The translations under genes were made by a program, and so were the position numbers. This document shows, in pieces, positions 48,656 to 55,529 of a stretch of 64,000 bases of DNA. Numbering within the stretch: position 1 is the first letter of the stretch; each line of letters opens with the position of its first letter. The notes beneath the pieces were generated by a model, which worked only from the letters and a program-made list of their open reading frames with translations, did no database searches and was not told the origin of the DNA. The stretch is from Escherichia coli (GTDB lineage Bacteria; Pseudomonadota; Gammaproteobacteria; Enterobacterales; Enterobacteriaceae), in the NCBI RefSeq assembly GCF_016026235.1, contig NZ_CP065613.1. One strand, written 5' to 3'.

Positions 48656-48768
48656 GGTCAAAGCCGGTATCATTAACCAGAGTCATCGTGACCTGTACTG
48701 CGGCTGGATGATCTCCTGCTACTGCAACTGCTAGGCGACCGCGGCTCCCTTCAGGTAGTCTGTTGTGG

Positions 48769-49607
<839 letters not shown>

Positions 49608-49662
49608 AGGATAACGCGCCCTGAGTTTCCCGATTATCGAAAACTGTTCAGGGAGTCTGACA

Positions 49663-49934
49663 TCAAGAGCGCGGTAGCCTTTTTAATATTTCATTTTCCA
49701 TTTCAATACGTTGTAGCTTTTTCCTGAGCTCACGGATTTCAATTTGTTCCGGGGTAATGGGGGAGGCTTTTGGTGTTTTTCCCTGCCGCTCATCACGTAA
49801 TTGTTTCACCCATCGCGTCATTGTGGAAAGGCCGACATCCATAGCGCTGGCTGCATCTGCCACGGTGTATTTCTGGTCAACGACCAGTTGAGCGGATTCG
49901 CGTTTAAACTCTGCGCTGAAATTTCTTTTTTCAT
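49663..49934 (-). pseudogene. insN: IS911 orfA (insN-like), frame-disrupted
   Basis: Body ...[57 protein letters not shown]... matches IS911 OrfA, but the ATG at 49934 is out of frame and the A6G slippery heptamer reads ttaaaaagg (one A short), ending the frame as ...EILKRLPRS*. Confidence 0.7.
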
Positions 49935-50171
49935 TATGGCACCTGTGTTGTTCTGAGGTGAGCATATCACCTCTGTTCAGGTAGCTAAATTTAGTGTGCC
50001 ACCTCAAGGTTCTTAGTGAGCCGTTTTTAAAAGATATGATAATATATTATTGTTTATAAATTGTTGATGTTTGATTTAGTAGTATATAAAGTTCACCAAC
50101 TTTATTAGGCTTTCCTTTTATCTCTACTTACTGGGTGCCAGAAACTTTAAATTTTAAACGGAGGGGGCATT

Positions 50172-50993
50172 TTGTTTAAAGCAAATCATGTTCCGGTATT
50201 AATGTATCATCATGTCAGCCATTGCCCAGGACTGGTTACACTTTCTCCCGAGACATTCCGGAAACAAATGAAATGGTTGGCTGAAAACAACTGGAAAACA
50301 CTGTCATCAGATGAACTGGAGTTTTTTTATCGGGGCGGAAAACTTCCCCGTAAAAGCGTTATGTTGACATTTGATGATGGATACCTTGACAACTGGTTTC
50401 AGGTATATCCTTTATTAAACGAGTTTAATCTCAAGGCACATATTTTTTTAATTACCAGTTTTATTGGAAATGGTCCGGTTCGTCACTCTCCTGGAAAGGA
50501 ATATTCTCATCGCGATTGCGAACATCAAATAGCAACCGGGAATGCTGATAATGTTATGCTTCGCTGGTCTGAAGTGAACGAAATGTTGCAATCTGGTCTG
50601 GTCGAATTTCATGTTCATACACATACTCATACACGTTGGGATAAAAAGTTCACTTCACGAGAAGAACAGTGTAAACATCTTCGGCAGGACTTATTGAGCG
50701 GGAGAGAATATTTAAAAAAAATGACAGGAAAATGCAGTAAACATTTGTGTTGGCCGGAAGGTTATTATAACAAGGATTATATTCAGATCGCTGAAGAACT
50801 TGGATTCCATTATTTATATACAACAGAAAGAAGAATGAATGCTCCAACTAAAGGAACTACACGGATAGGAAGAATAAGCACCAAGGAACGGGAAAATTGC
50901 GTATGGCTGAAAAGACGACTTTTTTATTATACAACACCGTTTTTTTCATCGTTGCTGGCCCTTCATAAGGGGCCAAGATTACCGGATGACTAA
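50172..50993 (+). CDS. shf: Polysaccharide deacetylase-family protein (Shf-like)
   Basis: 273-aa ORF with NodB-type motif (MLTFDDGYLDNW); first gene of a four-gene cluster whose order deacetylase - glycosyltransferase - VirK-like - LpxM-like equals the shf-rfbU(capU)-virK-msbB2 operon of Shigella/EAEC/EHEC plasmids; TTG start preceded by gagggggc. Confidence 0.65.
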   Translation: MFKANHVPVLMYHHVSHCPGLVTLSPETFRKQMKWLAENNWKTLSSDELEFFYRGGKLPRKSVMLTFDDGYLDNWFQVYPLLNEFNLKAHIFLITSFIGNGPVRHSPGKEYSHRDCEHQIATGNADNVMLRWSEVNEMLQSGLVEFHVHTHTHTRWDKKFTSREEQCKHLRQDLLSGREYLKKMTGKCSKHLCWPEGYYNKDYIQIAEELGFHYLYTTERRMNAPTKGTTRIGRISTKERENCVWLKRRLFYYTTPFFSSLLALHKGPRLPDD

Positions 50994-50995
50994 TA

Positions 50996-52084
50996 ATGAA
51001 TATACTATTTACGGAATCATCACCGAATATAGGTGGTCAGGAATTACAGGCTGTTGCTCAAATGAAGGCCCTGAAGAAAATGGGGCATTCAGTTCTGCTT
51101 GTCTGCAGGGAGAACAGCAAAATTGCTTTTGAAGCCAGTAAGTTTGGAATTGATATCACATTCGCGTTATTTCGAAACAGTCTTCACATCCCTACTGCAT
51201 GGAGATTACTCGGAATAGTTCATGGTTTTCAGCCCAATGCAATCGTTTGTCACAGTGGGCATGATAGCAATATTGTTGGTTTAGTACGGTTATTCACTTG
51301 GAAACATCCATTCAGAATTATCAGGCAAAAGACATATTTGACACGAAAAACAAAAGTTTTTTCAATAAATCATTTTTGCGATGAGGTGATTGTTCTCGGA
51401 ACAAGTATGAAGACACATCTGGAGCAGGAAGGATGTCGAACCCGGGTTACTGTTGTGCCTCCAGGCTTTGATTTCCAGAAATTATACGTTGATTCCCGAA
51501 ACAGTTTGCCTCCAAATGTTCTTTCTTGGCTGGCGTCCCGAAGGGGATGCCCCGTTATTGCTCAGGTAGGAATGTTGCGCCCGGAAAAAGGGCACGAATT
51601 TATGTTGAATTTACTGTTCCATTTAAAAATGAATGGACGACAGTTCTGTTGGTTGATTGTGGGGTCTGGTTCGCCTGAACTGCGGGAGCATTTACAGTAT
51701 CAGATTGACAGTATGGGCATGCATGATGATGTTTTTATTGCTGACAATGTTTTTCCTGCCGCCCCCGTATATCGGGTTGCCAGTCTGGTGGTTCTGCCTT
51801 CAGAAAACGAATCGTTTGGTATGGTACTGGCAGAAGCATCGGCATTTTCTGTGCCTGTACTGGCCAGTCAGATTGGTGGAATCCCTGATGTTATTCAGAA
51901 CAACCAGACCGGGACATTGTTACCAGCAGGTAATAAGCACGCATGGATGTGCGCCCTGAATGATTTTTTTAATGACCCTGGGCGTTTTTATCAGATGGCT
52001 CGCCTGGCAAAACAGGATATAGAAGAGCGGTTTGATATTAATAAAACTGCGTTAAAAATACTCACATTAGCGAAGCAAAAGTAA
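50996..52084 (+). CDS. capU: Family-1 (GT4-type) glycosyltransferase (CapU/RfbU-like)
   Basis: 362-aa ORF with retaining-GT C-terminal features (ESFGMVLAEA..., ...GGIPDVI...); second gene of the cluster. Confidence 0.65.
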   Translation: MNILFTESSPNIGGQELQAVAQMKALKKMGHSVLLVCRENSKIAFEASKFGIDITFALFRNSLHIPTAWRLLGIVHGFQPNAIVCHSGHDSNIVGLVRLFTWKHPFRIIRQKTYLTRKTKVFSINHFCDEVIVLGTSMKTHLEQEGCRTRVTVVPPGFDFQKLYVDSRNSLPPNVLSWLASRRGCPVIAQVGMLRPEKGHEFMLNLLFHLKMNGRQFCWLIVGSGSPELREHLQYQIDSMGMHDDVFIADNVFPAAPVYRVASLVVLPSENESFGMVLAEASAFSVPVLASQIGGIPDVIQNNQTGTLLPAGNKHAWMCALNDFFNDPGRFYQMARLAKQDIEERFDINKTALKILTLAKQK

Positions 52085-52088
52085 CAAT

Positions 52089-53039
52089 ATGTTTTCTATA
52101 AGTAACTTATCATTTATCGGTTTCCTTAAAAGGATTATTTTTTCCTCAGATTCACTACCGGGGAAGTGGGAACACAGAAAATTTCGGTTCATGTACATTT
52201 TGCGATGTTCTATAAATCCGGTTGTCAGTATTCGATATTATTATGAACTGCGTTCCTTGCCGTGCATTGAGGATATTCTGGCAATACACCCCACGTTGCC
52301 AGCAAGAATTCATCGCCCTTATTTGCATAAAGGGGGGCGCGCCTGGACCCGTGGACAATATATTCTTGAGCATTATCGCTTTGTGCAAAATTTGCCAGAA
52401 AAATATTCTAAATTTTTGTTTCCACAAAAATCGGTATCATTAGTCCAATTCATCGGGAAAGATGGAGAGAATTTTGATATCCAGTGTTCTCCCAGTGGTT
52501 TTGACCGGGAAGGAGAGTTGATGTTGTCATTGTTTTACAATAAAACAGTTATTGCCCGGTTAACATTTTCAGTCATTCTGACTCAAAATGGACACATTGC
52601 TTTTATTGGCGGATTACAGGGAGCCCCTAAAAATACCGGACCTGATGTTATTCGGTGCGCAACCCGGGCCTGTTATGGGATTTTCCCAAAACGGATTATT
52701 TTTGAAGCATTTTGTGCGTTGATGAAAGCTTGCAATATCTCTGAGTGTCTGGCAGTCAGTGAGCACAGTCATGTTTTCCGGCAATTGAGATACTGGTATC
52801 AGAAACGCAAAACCTTTGTTGCGGTCTATAGTGATTTCTGGGAGTCTGTAGCAGGAAAAACCTGTGGTGACTGGTACAGATTACCAACCCAGGTGATTCG
52901 AAAGCCGCTAAGCGATATAGCCAGTAAAAAACGCTCTGAGTACCGAAAACGATACGCTTTGCTGGATTATATCCATGAAACTACTATCCGCTCTTTGGAT
53001 GCATATCCTGTACACTCAGAACATCAGAATTTAAATTAA
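52089..53039 (+). CDS. virK: VirK-like protein (DUF535 family)
   Basis: 316-aa ORF; assignment rests mainly on its position between the glycosyltransferase and the lipid A acyltransferase. Confidence 0.55.
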   Translation: MFSISNLSFIGFLKRIIFSSDSLPGKWEHRKFRFMYILRCSINPVVSIRYYYELRSLPCIEDILAIHPTLPARIHRPYLHKGGRAWTRGQYILEHYRFVQNLPEKYSKFLFPQKSVSLVQFIGKDGENFDIQCSPSGFDREGELMLSLFYNKTVIARLTFSVILTQNGHIAFIGGLQGAPKNTGPDVIRCATRACYGIFPKRIIFEAFCALMKACNISECLAVSEHSHVFRQLRYWYQKRKTFVAVYSDFWESVAGKTCGDWYRLPTQVIRKPLSDIASKKRSEYRKRYALLDYIHETTIRSLDAYPVHSEHQNLN

Positions 53040-53103
53040 GGTTTGATGTATCCTCTGAATAAAACAGTAATGATAATTTTGGTAGAGGCATTCGCACTAA
53101 ATA

Positions 53104-54048
53104 ATGAAAAAATATAAATCTGAGTTTATTCCTGAATTTAAGAAAAATTACCTTTCCCCTGTTTACTGGTCTACATGGTTCCTTTTGGGAATGATTGCAG
53201 GTATTTCAATGTTTCCCCCTTCATTCAGAGATCCTGTCTTGGCAAAAATAGGGCGTTGGGCGGGCAGATTGAGCAAAAAAGCTCGTCGCAGGGCGACGAT
53301 TAATTTATCGCTTTGTTTCCCGGAAAAGAGTGATACAGAACGGGAAATAATTGTCGACAAAATGTTTGCCACAGCATTGCAATCCATAGTGATGATGGCA
53401 GAACTGGCAATTCGTGGTCCGGAAAAGTTCCAGAAACGAGTGTTCTGGAAAGGCCTCGAAATTCTTGAGGAAATTCGACACAATAATAGAAATGTGATTT
53501 TTCTGGTTCCCCATGGCTGGAGCGTGGATATTCCTGCAATGTTGCTGGCAGCTCAGGGAAAAAAAATGGCCGCCATGTTTCATCAGCAACGAAATCCAGT
53601 GATTGATTATGTCTGGAATTCAGTACGGCGTAAATTCGGGGGGCGCTTACATGCCCGGGAGGATGGGATAAAACCATTTATTCAGTCAGTACGCCAGGGA
53701 TACTGGGGATATTACCTCCCAGATCAGGATCATGGTCCTGAATACAGTGAATTTGCTGATTTTTTTGCGACCTATAAAGCGACATTACCAATCATTGGAC
53801 GTCTGATGAACATCAGTCAGGCTATGATTATACCACTTTTCCCGGTTTATGATGAAAAAAAACATCTCCTGACTATTGAAATTCGGCCACCAATGGATGC
53901 TTGCATTGCCAGCGCGGACAATAAAATGATTGCCCGACAAATGAACAAAACAGTGGAAATTTTGGTGGGGCCACATCCGGAACAGTATGTCTGGGTTTTA
54001 AAATTGTTAAAAACACGCAAATCAAACGAAGCGGACCCGTACCCTTGA
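53104..54048 (+). CDS. msbB2: Lipid A late (secondary) acyltransferase, LpxM/MsbB paralogue (MsbB2-like)
   Basis: 314-aa ORF with long collinear similarity to E. coli LpxM as I recall it (EFIPEF..., RRRATINLSLCFPEKSDTEREIIVDKMFATA, MMAELAIRGPEKFQ, VIFLVPHGWSVDIPAMLLAAQGKKMAAMFH, FGGRLHAREDGIKPFIQSVRQGYWGYYLPDQDHGPEYSEFADFFATYKATLP). Confidence 0.8.
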   Translation: MKKYKSEFIPEFKKNYLSPVYWSTWFLLGMIAGISMFPPSFRDPVLAKIGRWAGRLSKKARRRATINLSLCFPEKSDTEREIIVDKMFATALQSIVMMAELAIRGPEKFQKRVFWKGLEILEEIRHNNRNVIFLVPHGWSVDIPAMLLAAQGKKMAAMFHQQRNPVIDYVWNSVRRKFGGRLHAREDGIKPFIQSVRQGYWGYYLPDQDHGPEYSEFADFFATYKATLPIIGRLMNISQAMIIPLFPVYDEKKHLLTIEIRPPMDACIASADNKMIARQMNKTVEILVGPHPEQYVWVLKLLKTRKSNEADPYP

Positions 54049-54228
54049 AATTATAAAGTACAAGTATTTCCACTAGTTGTTTGTAAGCGTACAGCCTGAA
54101 CCGTCTGGTCAGAATCTGACGAATTAGACAAAGTGGTGTCCACCAAATAAGTAGTGGGAACCAATGAGGTAGCCTGAGTTTAACGGACACTCCTTCCTGA
54201 AATAGAATGGCATCAGAAGGAGCTAATA

Positions 54229-54528
54229 ATGAGCAGAAAAACCCAACGTTACTCTAAAGAGTTCAAAGCCGAAGCTGTCAGAACGGTTCTTGAAAATCAA
54301 CTTTCGATCAGTGAAGGCGCTTCCCGATTATCTCTTCCTGAAGGCACTTTAGGACAATGGGTTACCGCCGCCAGAAAAGGGCTCGGTACTCCTGGTTCCC
54401 GCACGGTGGCTGAACTGGAATCTGAAATTCTGCAACTGCGTAAGGCGTTAAATGAAGCTCGCCTTGAGCGAGATATATTAAAAAAAGCAACGTATTTTGC
54501 ACAGGAGTCGCTGAAAAATACGCGTTAA
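54229..54528 (+). CDS. IS600 OrfA
   Basis: 99-aa HTH protein. Confidence 0.8.
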   Translation: MSRKTQRYSKEFKAEAVRTVLENQLSISEGASRLSLPEGTLGQWVTAARKGLGTPGSRTVAELESEILQLRKALNEARLERDILKKATYFAQESLKNTR

Positions 54529-54563
54529 TCGAACAATGGCGACAACAATTTCCCATTGAAGCG

Positions 54564-55382
54564 ATGTGTCAGGTATTTGGTGTATCCAGGAGCGGTTATT
54601 ACAACTGGGTACAGCATGAACCCTCAGACAGAAAACAAAGTGATGAGCGGCTAAAACTGGAGATTAAGGTGGCACATATCCGCACTCGCGAAACATATGG
54701 AACCCGGCGGCTCCAGACGGAGCTGGCAGAGAATGGCATCATCGTTGGTCGTGACCGACTGGCACGTCTTCGTAAGGAGCTAAGGCTACGCTGTAAGCAG
54801 AAACGCAAGTTCAGAGCGACTACGAACTCGAACCACAATCTGCCAGTTGCGCCAAATCTGCTGAACCAGACGTTCGCTCCTACAGCACCAAATCAGGTCT
54901 GGGTGGCGGACCTGACGTATGTTGCCACACAGGAGGGATGGTTGTACCTCGCTGGCATCAAAGATGTTTATACGTGCGAAATTGTCGGCTACGCCATGGG
55001 AGAGCGCATGACAAAAGAGCTGACAGGTAAAGCCCTGTTTATGGCGCTCAGGAGCCAGCGCCCACCTGCCGGGCTAATCCACCACTCTGATCGAGGTTCA
55101 CAGTACTGCGCATACGATTACCGGGTCATACAGGAGCAGTTTGGTCTGAAAACATCAATGTCGCGTAAAGGTAACTGTTACGACAACGCTCCGATGGAAA
55201 GCTTCTGGGGAACGCTGAAAAATGAGAGCCTGAGCCACTATCGTTTTAATAACCGGGATGAAGCCATCTCAGTAATACGGGAATACATTGAGATTTTCTA
55301 CAATCGTCAGCGTCGTCACTCTCGTCTGGGGAATATCTCCCCGGCAGCCTTCAGGGAAAAATATCATCAGATGGCTGCTTAA
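54564..55382 (+). CDS. IS600 OrfB (DDE integrase core; normally made as OrfAB fusion)
   Basis: 272-aa ORF with DDE motif. Confidence 0.8.
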   Translation: MCQVFGVSRSGYYNWVQHEPSDRKQSDERLKLEIKVAHIRTRETYGTRRLQTELAENGIIVGRDRLARLRKELRLRCKQKRKFRATTNSNHNLPVAPNLLNQTFAPTAPNQVWVADLTYVATQEGWLYLAGIKDVYTCEIVGYAMGERMTKELTGKALFMALRSQRPPAGLIHHSDRGSQYCAYDYRVIQEQFGLKTSMSRKGNCYDNAPMESFWGTLKNESLSHYRFNNRDEAISVIREYIEIFYNRQRRHSRLGNISPAAFREKYHQMAA

Positions 55383-55529
55383 AAAAAGAACAACTGGTAG
55401 TGTCCGCTATTGCCAGTACACCTCAACATTCCACCATGCATTCCGATTAACGCCGCATAGCCAGTTGAACTTTGCTACTTTGTGAGAGGTAGTACCTTCT
55501 ATCCAGTGCGAATTTAATTAATGGAATAA

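What the first reader, a model, noticed from the sequence alone, without database searches (positions are those of the whole stretch)
50172..54048. Chromosomal shf-capU-virK-msbB2-like operon next to the fec islet
Four co-directional, tightly spaced genes encode a NodB-type polysaccharide deacetylase, a GT4 glycosyltransferase, a VirK-like protein and an LpxM/MsbB-type lipid A late acyltransferase. This order is the signature of the shf-rfbU(capU)-virK-msbB2 (ecf) operon, which I know from Shigella invasion plasmids, EAEC pAA and EHEC pO157. Here it lies in the chromosome between an IS911-like element and IS600, beside fecE. A chromosomal copy would give a plasmid-independent second lipid A acylation and envelope-modification capacity, and whether and how it is regulated in this context is unknown.
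Basis: partly seen in the sequence, partly recalled or inferred. Interest (0 to 1): 0.7.

Follow-up and report, generated by a model that had tools for sequence, protein, structure and literature searches.

The report
Known chromosomal shf-capU-virK-msbB2 operon
This is an intact chromosomal copy of a well-known four-gene operon that remodels the bacterial outer-membrane lipopolysaccharide; the same copy at the same site beside the fec iron-uptake genes was published for E. coli 042 in 2010 and sits in roughly 390 closed E. coli chromosomes, so it is ordinary apart from a short stretch of capU copied from a Shigella-type invasion plasmid.

Summary
Four intact, co-directional ORFs lie at 50172-54048, separated by 2, 4 and 64 nt. 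They encode a CE4 deacetylase (Shf), a GT4 glycosyltransferase (CapU/RfbU), VirK (DUF535) and an LpxM-type acyltransferase (MsbB2). They sit between a defective IS911-like element and IS600, downstream of fecE, in firmly chromosomal DNA.

The proteins are 93-99% identical to Shigella pINV Shf/RfbU/VirK/MsbB2 and 96-98% to pAA. One detail is wrong: pO157's ecf operon is only 59-70% identical and has an EptC-like gene where virK would be.

The finding is not new. EAEC 042 has the same locus in the same order (published 2010). In complete E. coli genomes, 429 of 5,426 hold most of the operon, mostly on the chromosome. The published PhoP box of the shf promoter is conserved at 50051-50067, so PhoPQ control is the likely regulation.

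The one new item is a clean 700-858 bp tract inside capU (51190-51889) that carries the pINV allele: 26 of 26 informative sites, flanked by 28 and 25 chromosomal-type sites. It is absent from all 5,426 complete genomes searched. Interest is low.

The parts
48761..50006 (-). Defective IS911-like (IS3 family) element. Its left inverted repeat ends at 50006/7, directly upstream of the operon. orfA is 49663-50007 and orfB is split into 49008-49607 and 48769-49011.
   Evidence: 97% identical to K-12 IS911B-1 and 90% to IS911B. ORFs. IAI39 and 042 annotate the equivalent as 'IS3 family transposase, frameshifted'. About 100 bp of this end is also present upstream of shf on pCP301 and pAA.
50008..50150 (+). 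Promoter and 5' leader cassette of the operon. It contains the PhoP box TGTTTA-TAAAT-TGTTGA at 50051-50067, and a -10-like TAGTAT at 50080-50085, 12 nt after the box.
   Evidence: The box hexamers are identical to the published pCP301 shf box tTGTTTAtgaatTGTTgAt, which PhoP binds in EMSA (PMC5775216). It is the only match to the consensus with at most 1 mismatch in the 64-kb window. Alignment. The -10 is inferred by position relative to the Shigella TAAATT mapped by primer extension (PMC12562796).
50172..50993 (+). shf (SfpgdA): CE4 polysaccharide deacetylase, 273 aa, with no signal peptide or transmembrane segment.
   Evidence: Pfam PF01522, E 2e-28. Closest solved structures are the PgaB/BpsB N-terminal domains. 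TFDD at residue 66 and HTHTH at 149; maximum Kyte-Doolittle 19-aa window 1.02. 99.3% identical to IAI39 and 95.2% to pCP301.
50996..52084 (+). capU (rfbU, Sfgtr4; homologue of pO157 wabB): GT4 glycosyltransferase, 362 aa.
   Evidence: GT4 families and Pfam PF13439/PF00534. EX7E motif at residue 272. 98.6% identical to pCP301, 96.4% to chromosomal copies and 59% to the pO157 RfbU-like protein.
51190..51889 (+). pINV-type recombination (gene-conversion) tract inside capU. The breakpoints lie within 51146-51190 and 51889-52005.
   Evidence: 79 informative sites read C x28, P x26, C x25 (C = chromosomal type, P = pINV type). The tract has 1-2 differences from pINV copies against 28-29 from chromosomal copies and pAA. 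No complete E. coli genome matches the operon better than 99.2%.
52089..53039 (+). virK: DUF535 protein, paralogue of YbjX, 316 aa.
   Evidence: PF04393, 300 bits. 100% identical to VirK of FDAARGOS_943, which carries the same protein accession as EAEC 042 VirK. No solved structure found by sequence.
53104..54048 (+). msbB2: LpxM paralogue (lauroyl-Kdo2-lipid IVA myristoyltransferase), 314 aa.
   Evidence: TIGR02208 at 443.5 bits against a cut-off of 336. HX4D motif (HGWSVD) at residue 137. Homology to LpxM of A. baumannii, 5kn7. 99.7-100% identical to chromosomal copies and 96.5% to pCP301.
54083..54164 (.). 82-bp terminal fragment of an IS66-family element. It marks the right end of the shared module; homology with pCP301 stops at 54082.
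   Evidence: 100% match to the DNA just upstream of an IS66 tnpA in strain 54214, L003 5250-5331.
54165..55425 (+). IS600, with orfA at 54229-54528 and orfB at 54564-55382.
   Evidence: 100% and 99.4% matches to IS600 copies. Terminal repeats read. ORFs.

Best explanation
The region is an intact chromosomal copy of the horizontally acquired, low-G+C shf-capU(rfbU)-virK-msbB2 envelope-remodelling operon. It lies inside the leuX-associated island (KpLE2 type), between fecIRABCDE and a BCCT transporter, and is bounded by IS3-family elements. It is the same locus already described on the EAEC 042 chromosome.

Shown here: gene identities, intactness, chromosomal position, conservation of the published PhoP box, and purifying selection on all four genes.

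Inferred from published work on the plasmid copies: phospho-PhoP binds the box at 50051-50067 under low Mg2+, acid pH or cationic peptides and drives one transcript through all four genes. MsbB2 then adds the last secondary acyl chain to penta-acylated lipid A, backing up LpxM. CapU transfers GlcNAc from UDP-GlcNAc to the LPS inner core, as WabB does on HepIII of the R3 core.

My own inference, not tested: Shf has no export signal and is reported to bind the transferase, so it most likely deacetylates that GlcNAc on the cytoplasmic side to give GlcN. VirK, a YbjX paralogue, supports outer-membrane barrier function by an unknown reaction.

In this particular genome, about 0.7-0.86 kb of capU was replaced by recombination with a Shigella/EIEC pINV-type allele.
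For: Four intact ORFs with the right families. 93-100% protein identity to prototypes. Identical gene order on the chromosomes of IAI39, FDAARGOS_943, strain 54214 and EAEC 042. 429 of 5,426 complete genomes hold at least 80% of the operon; all matches together give 526 places on chromosomes against 121 on plasmids.

EAEC 042 paper: a chromosomal four-gene shf locus, the fec locus a few genes away by locus tag, and the PhoPQ/Mg/temperature-regulated promoter present. The PhoP box is identical in both hexamers to the EMSA-verified pCP301 box. dN/dS against pINV copies is 0.14-0.36 for all four genes. Catalytic motifs are present: TFDD and HTHTH, EX7E, HX4D.

Shf has no signal peptide or TM segment. 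SfPgdA-SfGtr4 pull-down and glycosyltransferase activity are reported in PMC7355660. WabB adds GlcNAc to HepIII, and that lateral residue is variably non-acetylated (bioRxiv 10.1101/536201). Recombination tract.
Against: No expression or biochemical data exist for this copy. The promoter differs from the Shigella one by a 49-bp deletion that begins inside the mapped -10, so the start site and strength may differ. A generic sigma-70 scan finds nothing special upstream, as expected for PhoP-dependent promoters but uninformative.

Shf was published as a peptidoglycan deacetylase (SfPgdA) and as a biofilm factor in EAEC. That conflicts with my LPS-core reading of Shf. CapU is only 59% identical to the characterised WabB, and the core type of this host is unknown. 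In other strains the locus is often broken: a stop codon in capU, IS1 or IS903 insertions, partial deletions.
Confidence: 0.88

Rival explanations
1. The contig is a chimera of plasmid and chromosome, and the operon is really plasmid-borne.
For: The operon is common on plasmids: 186 plasmid records hold at least 80% of it. It is flanked by IS elements that could mislead an assembler.
Against: The window is 99.99% identical over 13 kb to a 4.56 Mb contig, and the exact CapU also occurs on a 5.07 Mb contig. The same fecE-IS3-operon-IS600-BCCT order is found on independent closed chromosomes, including IAI39 and EAEC 042. Ninety-five genomes hold at least 80% of the 24-kb context in one place. 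Core genes lie upstream.
Confidence: 0.02
2. The chromosomal copy is a silent or decaying passenger of the island and does not contribute to the envelope.
For: Related strains carry a stop codon in capU (strain 54214), IS1 or IS903 insertions, and truncations down to virK-lpxM or lpxM alone. K-12 lacks the module entirely. LpxM is expected to make MsbB2 redundant under standard conditions.
Against: All four ORFs are intact here, with catalytic motifs. The PhoP box and leader are conserved. dN/dS is 0.14-0.36. The module is retained at 99% identity in several hundred chromosomes.
Confidence: 0.1
3. Shf acts outside the cytoplasm on peptidoglycan (SfPgdA, lysozyme resistance) or on a PNAG-like exopolysaccharide (IcaB/PgaB-like, biofilm), independently of CapU, rather than deacetylating an LPS-core GlcNAc.
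For: The closest families and structures are PNAG deacetylases PgaB, BpsB and IcaB. Published phenotypes are lysozyme sensitivity and altered biofilm in shf mutants, with SfPgdA in the membrane fraction.
Against: There is no signal peptide, lipobox or TM segment, with either start codon. The PgaB C-terminal PNAG-binding domain is missing: 273 aa against a 621-position PgaB profile of which only positions 1-144 match in the best stretch. The gene is separated by 2 nt from a cytoplasmic GT4 enzyme, with which its product is reported to interact. The pO157 operon keeps the deacetylase-transferase pair while replacing virK.
Confidence: 0.3
4. The pINV-like patch in capU is not a plasmid-to-chromosome conversion in this lineage. 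It is either a consensus-polishing artefact in a strain holding two copies, or an old chromosomal allele not sampled among complete genomes.
For: Only two assemblies carry this exact CapU. One is a long-read culture-collection assembly, judging by its accession series (my own knowledge). The plasmid content of the strain is unknown.
Against: The pattern is sharp: 26 of 26 informative sites are pINV-type, with 28 and 25 chromosomal-type sites on either side and no mixed calls. Two separate accessions (STM00835.1, QPR08525.1) give the identical protein on contigs of different length. None of 5,426 complete genomes has it.
Confidence: 0.12

Closest known systems
Chromosomal shf locus of EAEC 042 (Ec042-4769 to 4772; Chaudhuri et al. 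2010, PMC2808357)
   Same: Same four genes, same order and orientation, and the same neighbours: DUF2254, BCCT, IS600 on one side, and frameshifted IS3, a hypothetical gene and fecEDCBARI on the other, in the leuX island. 042 VirK carries the same protein accession as FDAARGOS_943 VirK, which is 100% identical to the window's. The paper reports the PhoPQ-regulated promoter as present.
   Different: The window has the pINV-type tract in capU and an extra IS4-family insertion at 47363-48653. Its fim and yjh flank is deleted.
shf-rfbU-virK-msbB2 operon of Shigella/EIEC pINV (pWR100, pCP301)
   Same: Same gene order and 93-98.6% protein identity. Same PhoP box. The same IS911-like end fragment lies upstream.
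   Different: Plasmid versus chromosome. pINV has a 49-bp insertion after the position matching window 50081 that carries the mapped -10 and start site. It is followed by IS630 instead of an IS66 fragment plus IS600. DNA identity is 97-98%.
shf-capU-virK of EAEC plasmid pAA2
   Same: 98.1% DNA identity over 3.1 kb, and the same short (E. coli type) promoter version.
   Different: It lacks msbB2.
ecf operon of pO157 (ecf1, ecf2/wabB, ecf3, ecf4/msbB2)
   Same: A deacetylase, a GT4 transferase and an MsbB2-type acyltransferase in the same order, all acting on LPS.
   Different: Only 70%, 59% and 65% protein identity. The third gene is a 573-aa YijP/EptC-like protein rather than a DUF535 VirK. 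megablast finds no match.
KpLE2 element of E. coli K-12 (fec - yjhV - IS911B - IS600 fragment - IS30D)
   Same: Same island scaffold at leuX. fecR to yjhV is 99.7% identical, and the IS911 and IS600 pieces are present.
   Different: K-12 lacks window 50007-54164 (promoter, four genes, IS66 fragment) and the BCCT and DUF2254 genes. In K-12 the IS911 sequence matching window 49555 abuts the IS600 end matching window 54165.
WabH/WabN two-step incorporation of GlcN into the Klebsiella LPS core (from my own knowledge; not checked here)
   Same: A GlcNAc transferase followed by a dedicated deacetylase yields core GlcN. This is the model I propose for CapU plus Shf.
   Different: No sequence relationship was tested. 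The acceptor sugar differs (GalA in Klebsiella, HepIII in the R3 core).

Membership tests
shf-rfbU(capU)-virK-msbB2 operon | Four genes in this order on one strand, closely spaced | tested here: met
   Gaps of 2, 4 and 64 nt. Same order as pCP301 and the EAEC 042 chromosome.
shf-rfbU(capU)-virK-msbB2 operon | High identity of each product to the prototype pINV or pAA proteins | tested here: met
   95.2, 98.6, 93.0 and 96.5% to pCP301. 96.7, 96.4 and 98.4% to pAA.
shf-rfbU(capU)-virK-msbB2 operon | PhoP box in the promoter upstream of shf | tested here: met
   TGTTTATAAATTGTTGA at 50051-50067. Hexamers are identical to the published box. PhoP binding and induction were not tested for this copy.
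shf-rfbU(capU)-virK-msbB2 operon | Single PhoPQ-dependent transcript covering all four genes | not testable with these tools
   Reported for the Shigella plasmid copy. No terminator-like site lies between the genes on the + strand, apart from a weak stem inside msbB2.
pO157 ecf operon | Third gene ecf3 (YijP/EptC-like membrane protein) between wabB and msbB2 | tested here: not met
   The window has DUF535 VirK at that position. tblastn of VirK finds nothing on pO157.
LpxM/MsbB (lauroyl-Kdo2-lipid IVA myristoyltransferase) | Score above the curated equivalog cut-off, and the HX4D acyltransferase motif | tested here: met
   TIGR02208 at 443.5 bits against 336.05. HGWSVD at residue 137. Acyl-chain specificity was not tested.
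CE4 / NodB-type polysaccharide deacetylase | PF01522 domain with the Asp-Asp (TFDD) and His-His (H-S/T-x-x-H) metal and catalytic motifs | tested here: met
   PF01522, E 2e-28. TFDD at 66 and HTHTH at 149. The alignment to BpsB keeps LTFDDGY.
PgaB/IcaB PNAG deacetylases (equivalog level) | Export signal or lipobox and, for PgaB, the C-terminal PNAG-binding domain; score above the equivalog cut-off | tested here: not met
   122 bits against a cut-off of 322 (PgaB) and 77.5 against 248 (IcaB). No hydrophobic N-terminus. 273 aa against a 621-position PgaB profile.
GT4 retaining glycosyltransferases | GT-B fold families Glyco_transf_4 and Glycos_transf_1, and the EX7E motif | tested here: met
   Pfam hits on the identical protein. 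ESFGMVLAE at residue 272.
WabB (HepIII alpha-1,7-GlcNAc transferase of the R3 core) | Orthology to the characterised pO157 enzyme, and an R3-type acceptor in the host | tested here: inconclusive
   59% identity over the full length to pO157p80. The host core type lies outside the window. EAEC and Shigella authors equate RfbU with WabB.
VirK/YbjX (DUF535) | Full-length PF04393 domain | tested here: met
   300 bits, model positions 2-278 of 281.

The most novel reading that the evidence does not exclude
The chromosomal operon of this strain exchanged 0.7-0.86 kb of capU with a Shigella/EIEC invasion-plasmid copy. That would mean the two paralogous LPS-modification operons once co-resided and recombined. 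Separately, the PhoP-box promoter and leader (50008-50150) behaves as a portable cassette that also sits in front of a FimA-like fimbrial gene on unrelated plasmids. Together these would show that both the coding and the regulatory parts of this envelope module are shuffled between replicons.
Probability: 0.75. Interest if true: 0.3.

Novelty: already known. Interest (0 to 1): 0.15.

Why it matters
It matters little as a discovery. The locus, its position next to fec and its PhoPQ promoter are published, and the genes are routinely annotated.

Practically, a chromosomal msbB2 means that curing a plasmid or deleting lpxM alone will not give penta-acylated lipid A in such strains. This is relevant to detoxified vaccine or vesicle strains and to the interpretation of plasmid-cured mutants.

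About 7% of complete E. coli genomes carry a near-complete chromosomal copy (estimated), so virK, capU or shf PCR markers should not be read as plasmid markers. The capU mosaic is a small, clean example of recombination between plasmid and chromosomal paralogues.

Tried and rejected
- A generic sigma-70 promoter and terminator scan of 49900-54300 gave counts no higher than shuffles and did not pick up the PhoP-type promoter. It was uninformative.
- Goldman et al. 2008 (PMC2395013), the primary paper on Mg2+ regulation of msbB2, is not held. I relied on later papers that cite it.
- Searching papers for the assembly accession found nothing. The strain could only be labelled 'Escherichia coli' from protein records. 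My early guess that the window was a Shigella chromosome is not supported by those labels.
- VirK has no relative among solved structures by sequence.
- No tRNA lies in the window; leuX is outside it.
- The PhoP-box count alone is not significant: 1 match found against 0.82 expected in the whole window. Its weight comes from its position and its identity to the published site.
- The DNase footprint coordinates in PMC5775216 (-115 to -81) do not map onto the box if counted from either candidate start codon of shf. I used the box sequence printed in that paper's Table 5 instead.

Full report
**1. Observation**

The four ORFs exist exactly where stated: 50172-50993 (273 aa), 50996-52084 (362 aa), 52089-53039 (316 aa) and 53104-54048 (314 aa). 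All are on the + strand, with gaps of 2, 4 and 64 nt. The first ORF starts at a TTG that lies 3 nt after the GGAGGGGG run at 50161-50168. G+C drops to 0.37-0.44 across the operon, against 0.52-0.61 in the fec genes, as expected for acquired DNA.

Family assignments are clear.
- ORF1 carries Pfam PF01522 and resembles the N-terminal domain of PgaB/BpsB.
- ORF2 is a GT4 transferase.
- ORF3 is a full-length DUF535/VirK, 300 bits.
- ORF4 passes the curated LpxM equivalog cut-off, TIGR02208 at 443.5 against 336 bits.
- Catalytic motifs are present: TFDD66 and HTHTH149 in Shf, EX7E at 272 in CapU, and HX4D at 137 in MsbB2.

**2. Surroundings**

- Upstream lies fecIRABCDE (fecE at 45801-46568).
- Next comes a yjhV-like remnant carrying an extra IS4-family insertion at 47363-48653, with a 12-bp target duplication.
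- A defective IS911-like element at 48761-50006 ends 165 bp before shf.
- Downstream, homology with plasmid copies stops at 54082.
- An 82-bp IS66-family end fragment follows at 54083-54164.
- IS600 is at 54165-55425, followed by a BetT-like BCCT transporter and a DUF2254 gene.
- Further upstream are core chromosomal genes (yji genes, uxuAB, gntP, fimH to a truncated fimD), so the DNA is chromosomal.

The window is 99.992% identical over 13 kb to a 4.56 Mb contig of NCBI assembly GCA_900449985.1. The exact CapU protein occurs only there and on a 5.07 Mb contig, and both are labelled E. coli.

**3. Identity with known operons**

| Compared with | Shf | CapU | VirK | MsbB2 |
|---|---|---|---|---|
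| S. flexneri 2a pCP301 | 95.2% | 98.6% | 93.0% | 96.5% |
| pAA of EAEC 042 | 96.7% | 96.4% | 98.4% | absent |
| IAI39 chromosome | 99.3% | 96.4% | 99.7% | 99.7% |
| pO157 Sakai | 70.0% | 59.3% | no match | 65.5% |

On pO157 the gene between the transferase and msbB2 is a 573-aa protein annotated as similar to P32678, which I know as YijP/EptC.

**4. Already known**

Chaudhuri et al. [quoted passage not shown] The chromosomal one (Ec042-4769-72) has shf, rfbU, virK and msbB2, and the fec locus is Ec042-4776-82. [quoted passage not shown] A 2025 paper again cites the chromosomal virK of 042.

I checked the 042 chromosome directly. It has DUF2254, BCCT, IS600, lpxM, virK, capU, the deacetylase, a frameshifted IS3, a hypothetical gene and fecEDCBARI, inside the island that starts at tRNA-Leu (leuX). 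This is the same order as the window. IAI39, FDAARGOS_943 and strain 54214 show the same.

With an IS-free query, 567 of 5,426 complete E. coli genomes have a match and 429 hold at least 80% of the operon. All matches together give 526 places on chromosomes and 121 on plasmids. In an evenly spaced sample of the ranking, 39 of the 45 near-complete copies were on chromosome-sized records. That scales to about 390 of the 450 near-complete records.

K-12 has the same island scaffold (KpLE2: fec, yjhV, IS911B, IS600 fragment) but lacks 50007-54164. The plasmid/chromosome chimera hypothesis is refuted by these independent closed genomes. Ninety-five of them hold at least 80% of the 24-kb context in one place.

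**5. Regulation**

The published PhoP box of the pCP301 shf promoter is tTGTTTAtgaatTGTTgAt; PhoP binds it in EMSA and induces the promoter in low Mg2+, acid pH and polymyxin (PMC5775216). It is present at 50051-50067 as TGTTTATAAATTGTTGA, with both hexamers identical.

This is the only match to the PhoP consensus with at most one mismatch in the 64-kb window. One match is about what chance gives (0.82 expected), so its weight comes from position and identity to the published site.

Compared with pINV, the E. coli-type promoter (window, IAI39, pAA) lacks 49 bp after 50081. In Shigella the -10 TAAATT mapped by primer extension (PMC12562796) starts 12 nt after the box and runs into that 49-bp segment. 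At the same spacing the window has TAGTAT. I infer that PhoP-dependent initiation is kept, with a leader about 49 nt shorter. This is not shown.

**6. Mechanism**

Established knowledge of the plasmid copies supports three points.
- MsbB2 is a second lipid A late acyltransferase.
- RfbU/CapU/SfGtr4 has glycosyltransferase activity and is equated with WabB, which puts GlcNAc on HepIII of the R3 core.
- VirK and its paralogue YbjX support the outer-membrane barrier.

The role of Shf is disputed among peptidoglycan deacetylase, biofilm factor and LPS modification. Several sequence features bear on this.
- Shf has no signal peptide or TM segment.
- It lacks the PgaB C-terminal domain and scores far below the PgaB and IcaB cut-offs.
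- It ends 2 nt before the start of the transferase gene.
- It is reported to bind the transferase.
- The deacetylase-transferase pair is kept in pO157 even though virK is replaced.

I therefore favour a cytoplasmic two-step GlcNAc to GlcN decoration of the inner core. This is an inference, and the extracytoplasmic reading stays at about 0.3.

All four genes are under purifying selection between chromosomal and pINV alleles, with dN/dS of 0.14-0.36. The locus does decay in some strains: a stop codon in capU in strain 54214, IS insertions, and truncations.

**7. What is new here**

The window's operon differs from other chromosomal copies almost only in capU. At 79 sites, three chromosomal copies and five pINV copies each agree among themselves but differ from each other. 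At those sites the window reads chromosomal x28, pINV x26, chromosomal x25.

The pINV block spans 51190-51889, with breakpoints within 51146-51190 and 51889-52005. Inside it there are 1-2 differences from pINV copies against 28-29 from chromosomal copies and pAA. No complete E. coli genome matches the operon better than 99.2%, and the exact protein occurs in only two assemblies.

The simplest reading is gene conversion from a co-resident Shigella/EIEC pINV-type plasmid. A polishing artefact or an unsampled old allele is less likely but not excluded.

**8. Side observation**

The 143-bp promoter and leader cassette (50008-50150), PhoP box included, is about 95% identical to the DNA immediately upstream of a FimA-like fimbrial subunit gene on Salmonella IncF and Moellerella ColE-type plasmids. 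Homology ends just before the ribosome-binding site. On the Moellerella plasmid it is also preceded by an IS911-like inverted-repeat end.

**9. Verdict**

The finding is already known and commonly annotated, so interest is low at 0.15. The capU mosaic and the shared promoter cassette are minor new details.

Noticed in passing
window 51190-51889 (breakpoints within 51146-51190 and 51889-52005): A clean pINV-type recombination tract inside the otherwise chromosomal-type capU. 26 of 26 informative sites are pINV-type, flanked by 28 and 25 chromosomal-type sites. It is absent from 5,426 complete E. coli genomes.
   Followed up: yes
window 50008-50150; L014 2980-3118; L015 2975-3117: The shf promoter and leader cassette, including the PhoP box, is about 95% identical to the DNA directly upstream of a FimA-like fimbrial subunit gene on Salmonella IncF and Moellerella plasmids. 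Homology stops just before the ribosome-binding site. It looks like a portable regulatory cassette.
   Followed up: partly
window 50081/50082 versus L004 (pCP301): Shigella pINV carries a 49-bp segment here that the window, IAI39 and pAA lack. The mapped Shigella -10 (TAAATT) spans the junction, and the window has TAGTAT at the same spacing from the PhoP box. The two promoter versions may differ in start site and leader.
   Followed up: partly
window 35014-39022: fimD is cut to its C-terminal 382 codons at 36162 by an IS1. A second IS1 copy lies at about 38030-38800, with a 97-aa ORF (37016-37309) between them, and fecI follows at 39023. Compared with K-12, fimB to the 5' part of fimD is missing, and so, from K-12's known gene order (my own knowledge), is the roughly 20 kb yjh/sgc region. 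This strain should therefore lack type 1 fimbriae.
   Followed up: partly
window 47363-48653: An IS4-family (DDE_Tnp_1) insertion with a 12-bp target duplication in the yjhV remnant, absent from K-12. Its transposase is split into 244-aa and 200-aa ORFs in the window but is one 396-aa gene in GCA_900449985.1. This may correspond to the single indel between the two sequences.
   Followed up: partly
window 54083-54164: An 82-bp orphan end of an IS66-family element lies between the operon and IS600. It marks the right edge of the DNA shared with plasmid copies.
   Followed up: partly
L013 (K-12 MG1655 4507125-4509801) versus window 49555 and 54165: In K-12 KpLE2 the IS911B sequence matching window 49555 abuts the IS600 end matching window 54165. 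K-12 therefore looks like a rearranged derivative of the same island that lacks the shf module and the BCCT and DUF2254 genes.
   Followed up: partly
L007 37222-41648 (pO157 Sakai): The pO157 ecf operon has a 573-aa YijP/EptC-like gene in the place of virK. The deacetylase is annotated there only as a 145-aa hypothetical protein, although tblastn aligns all 273 residues of Shf at 70% identity.
   Followed up: partly
L003 23964-25052 and hits H77, H92, H119-H128: Chromosomal copies of the operon are decaying in some lineages: an internal stop in capU (strain 54214), IS1 or IS903B insertions, and truncations that leave only virK-lpxM or lpxM.
   Followed up: no
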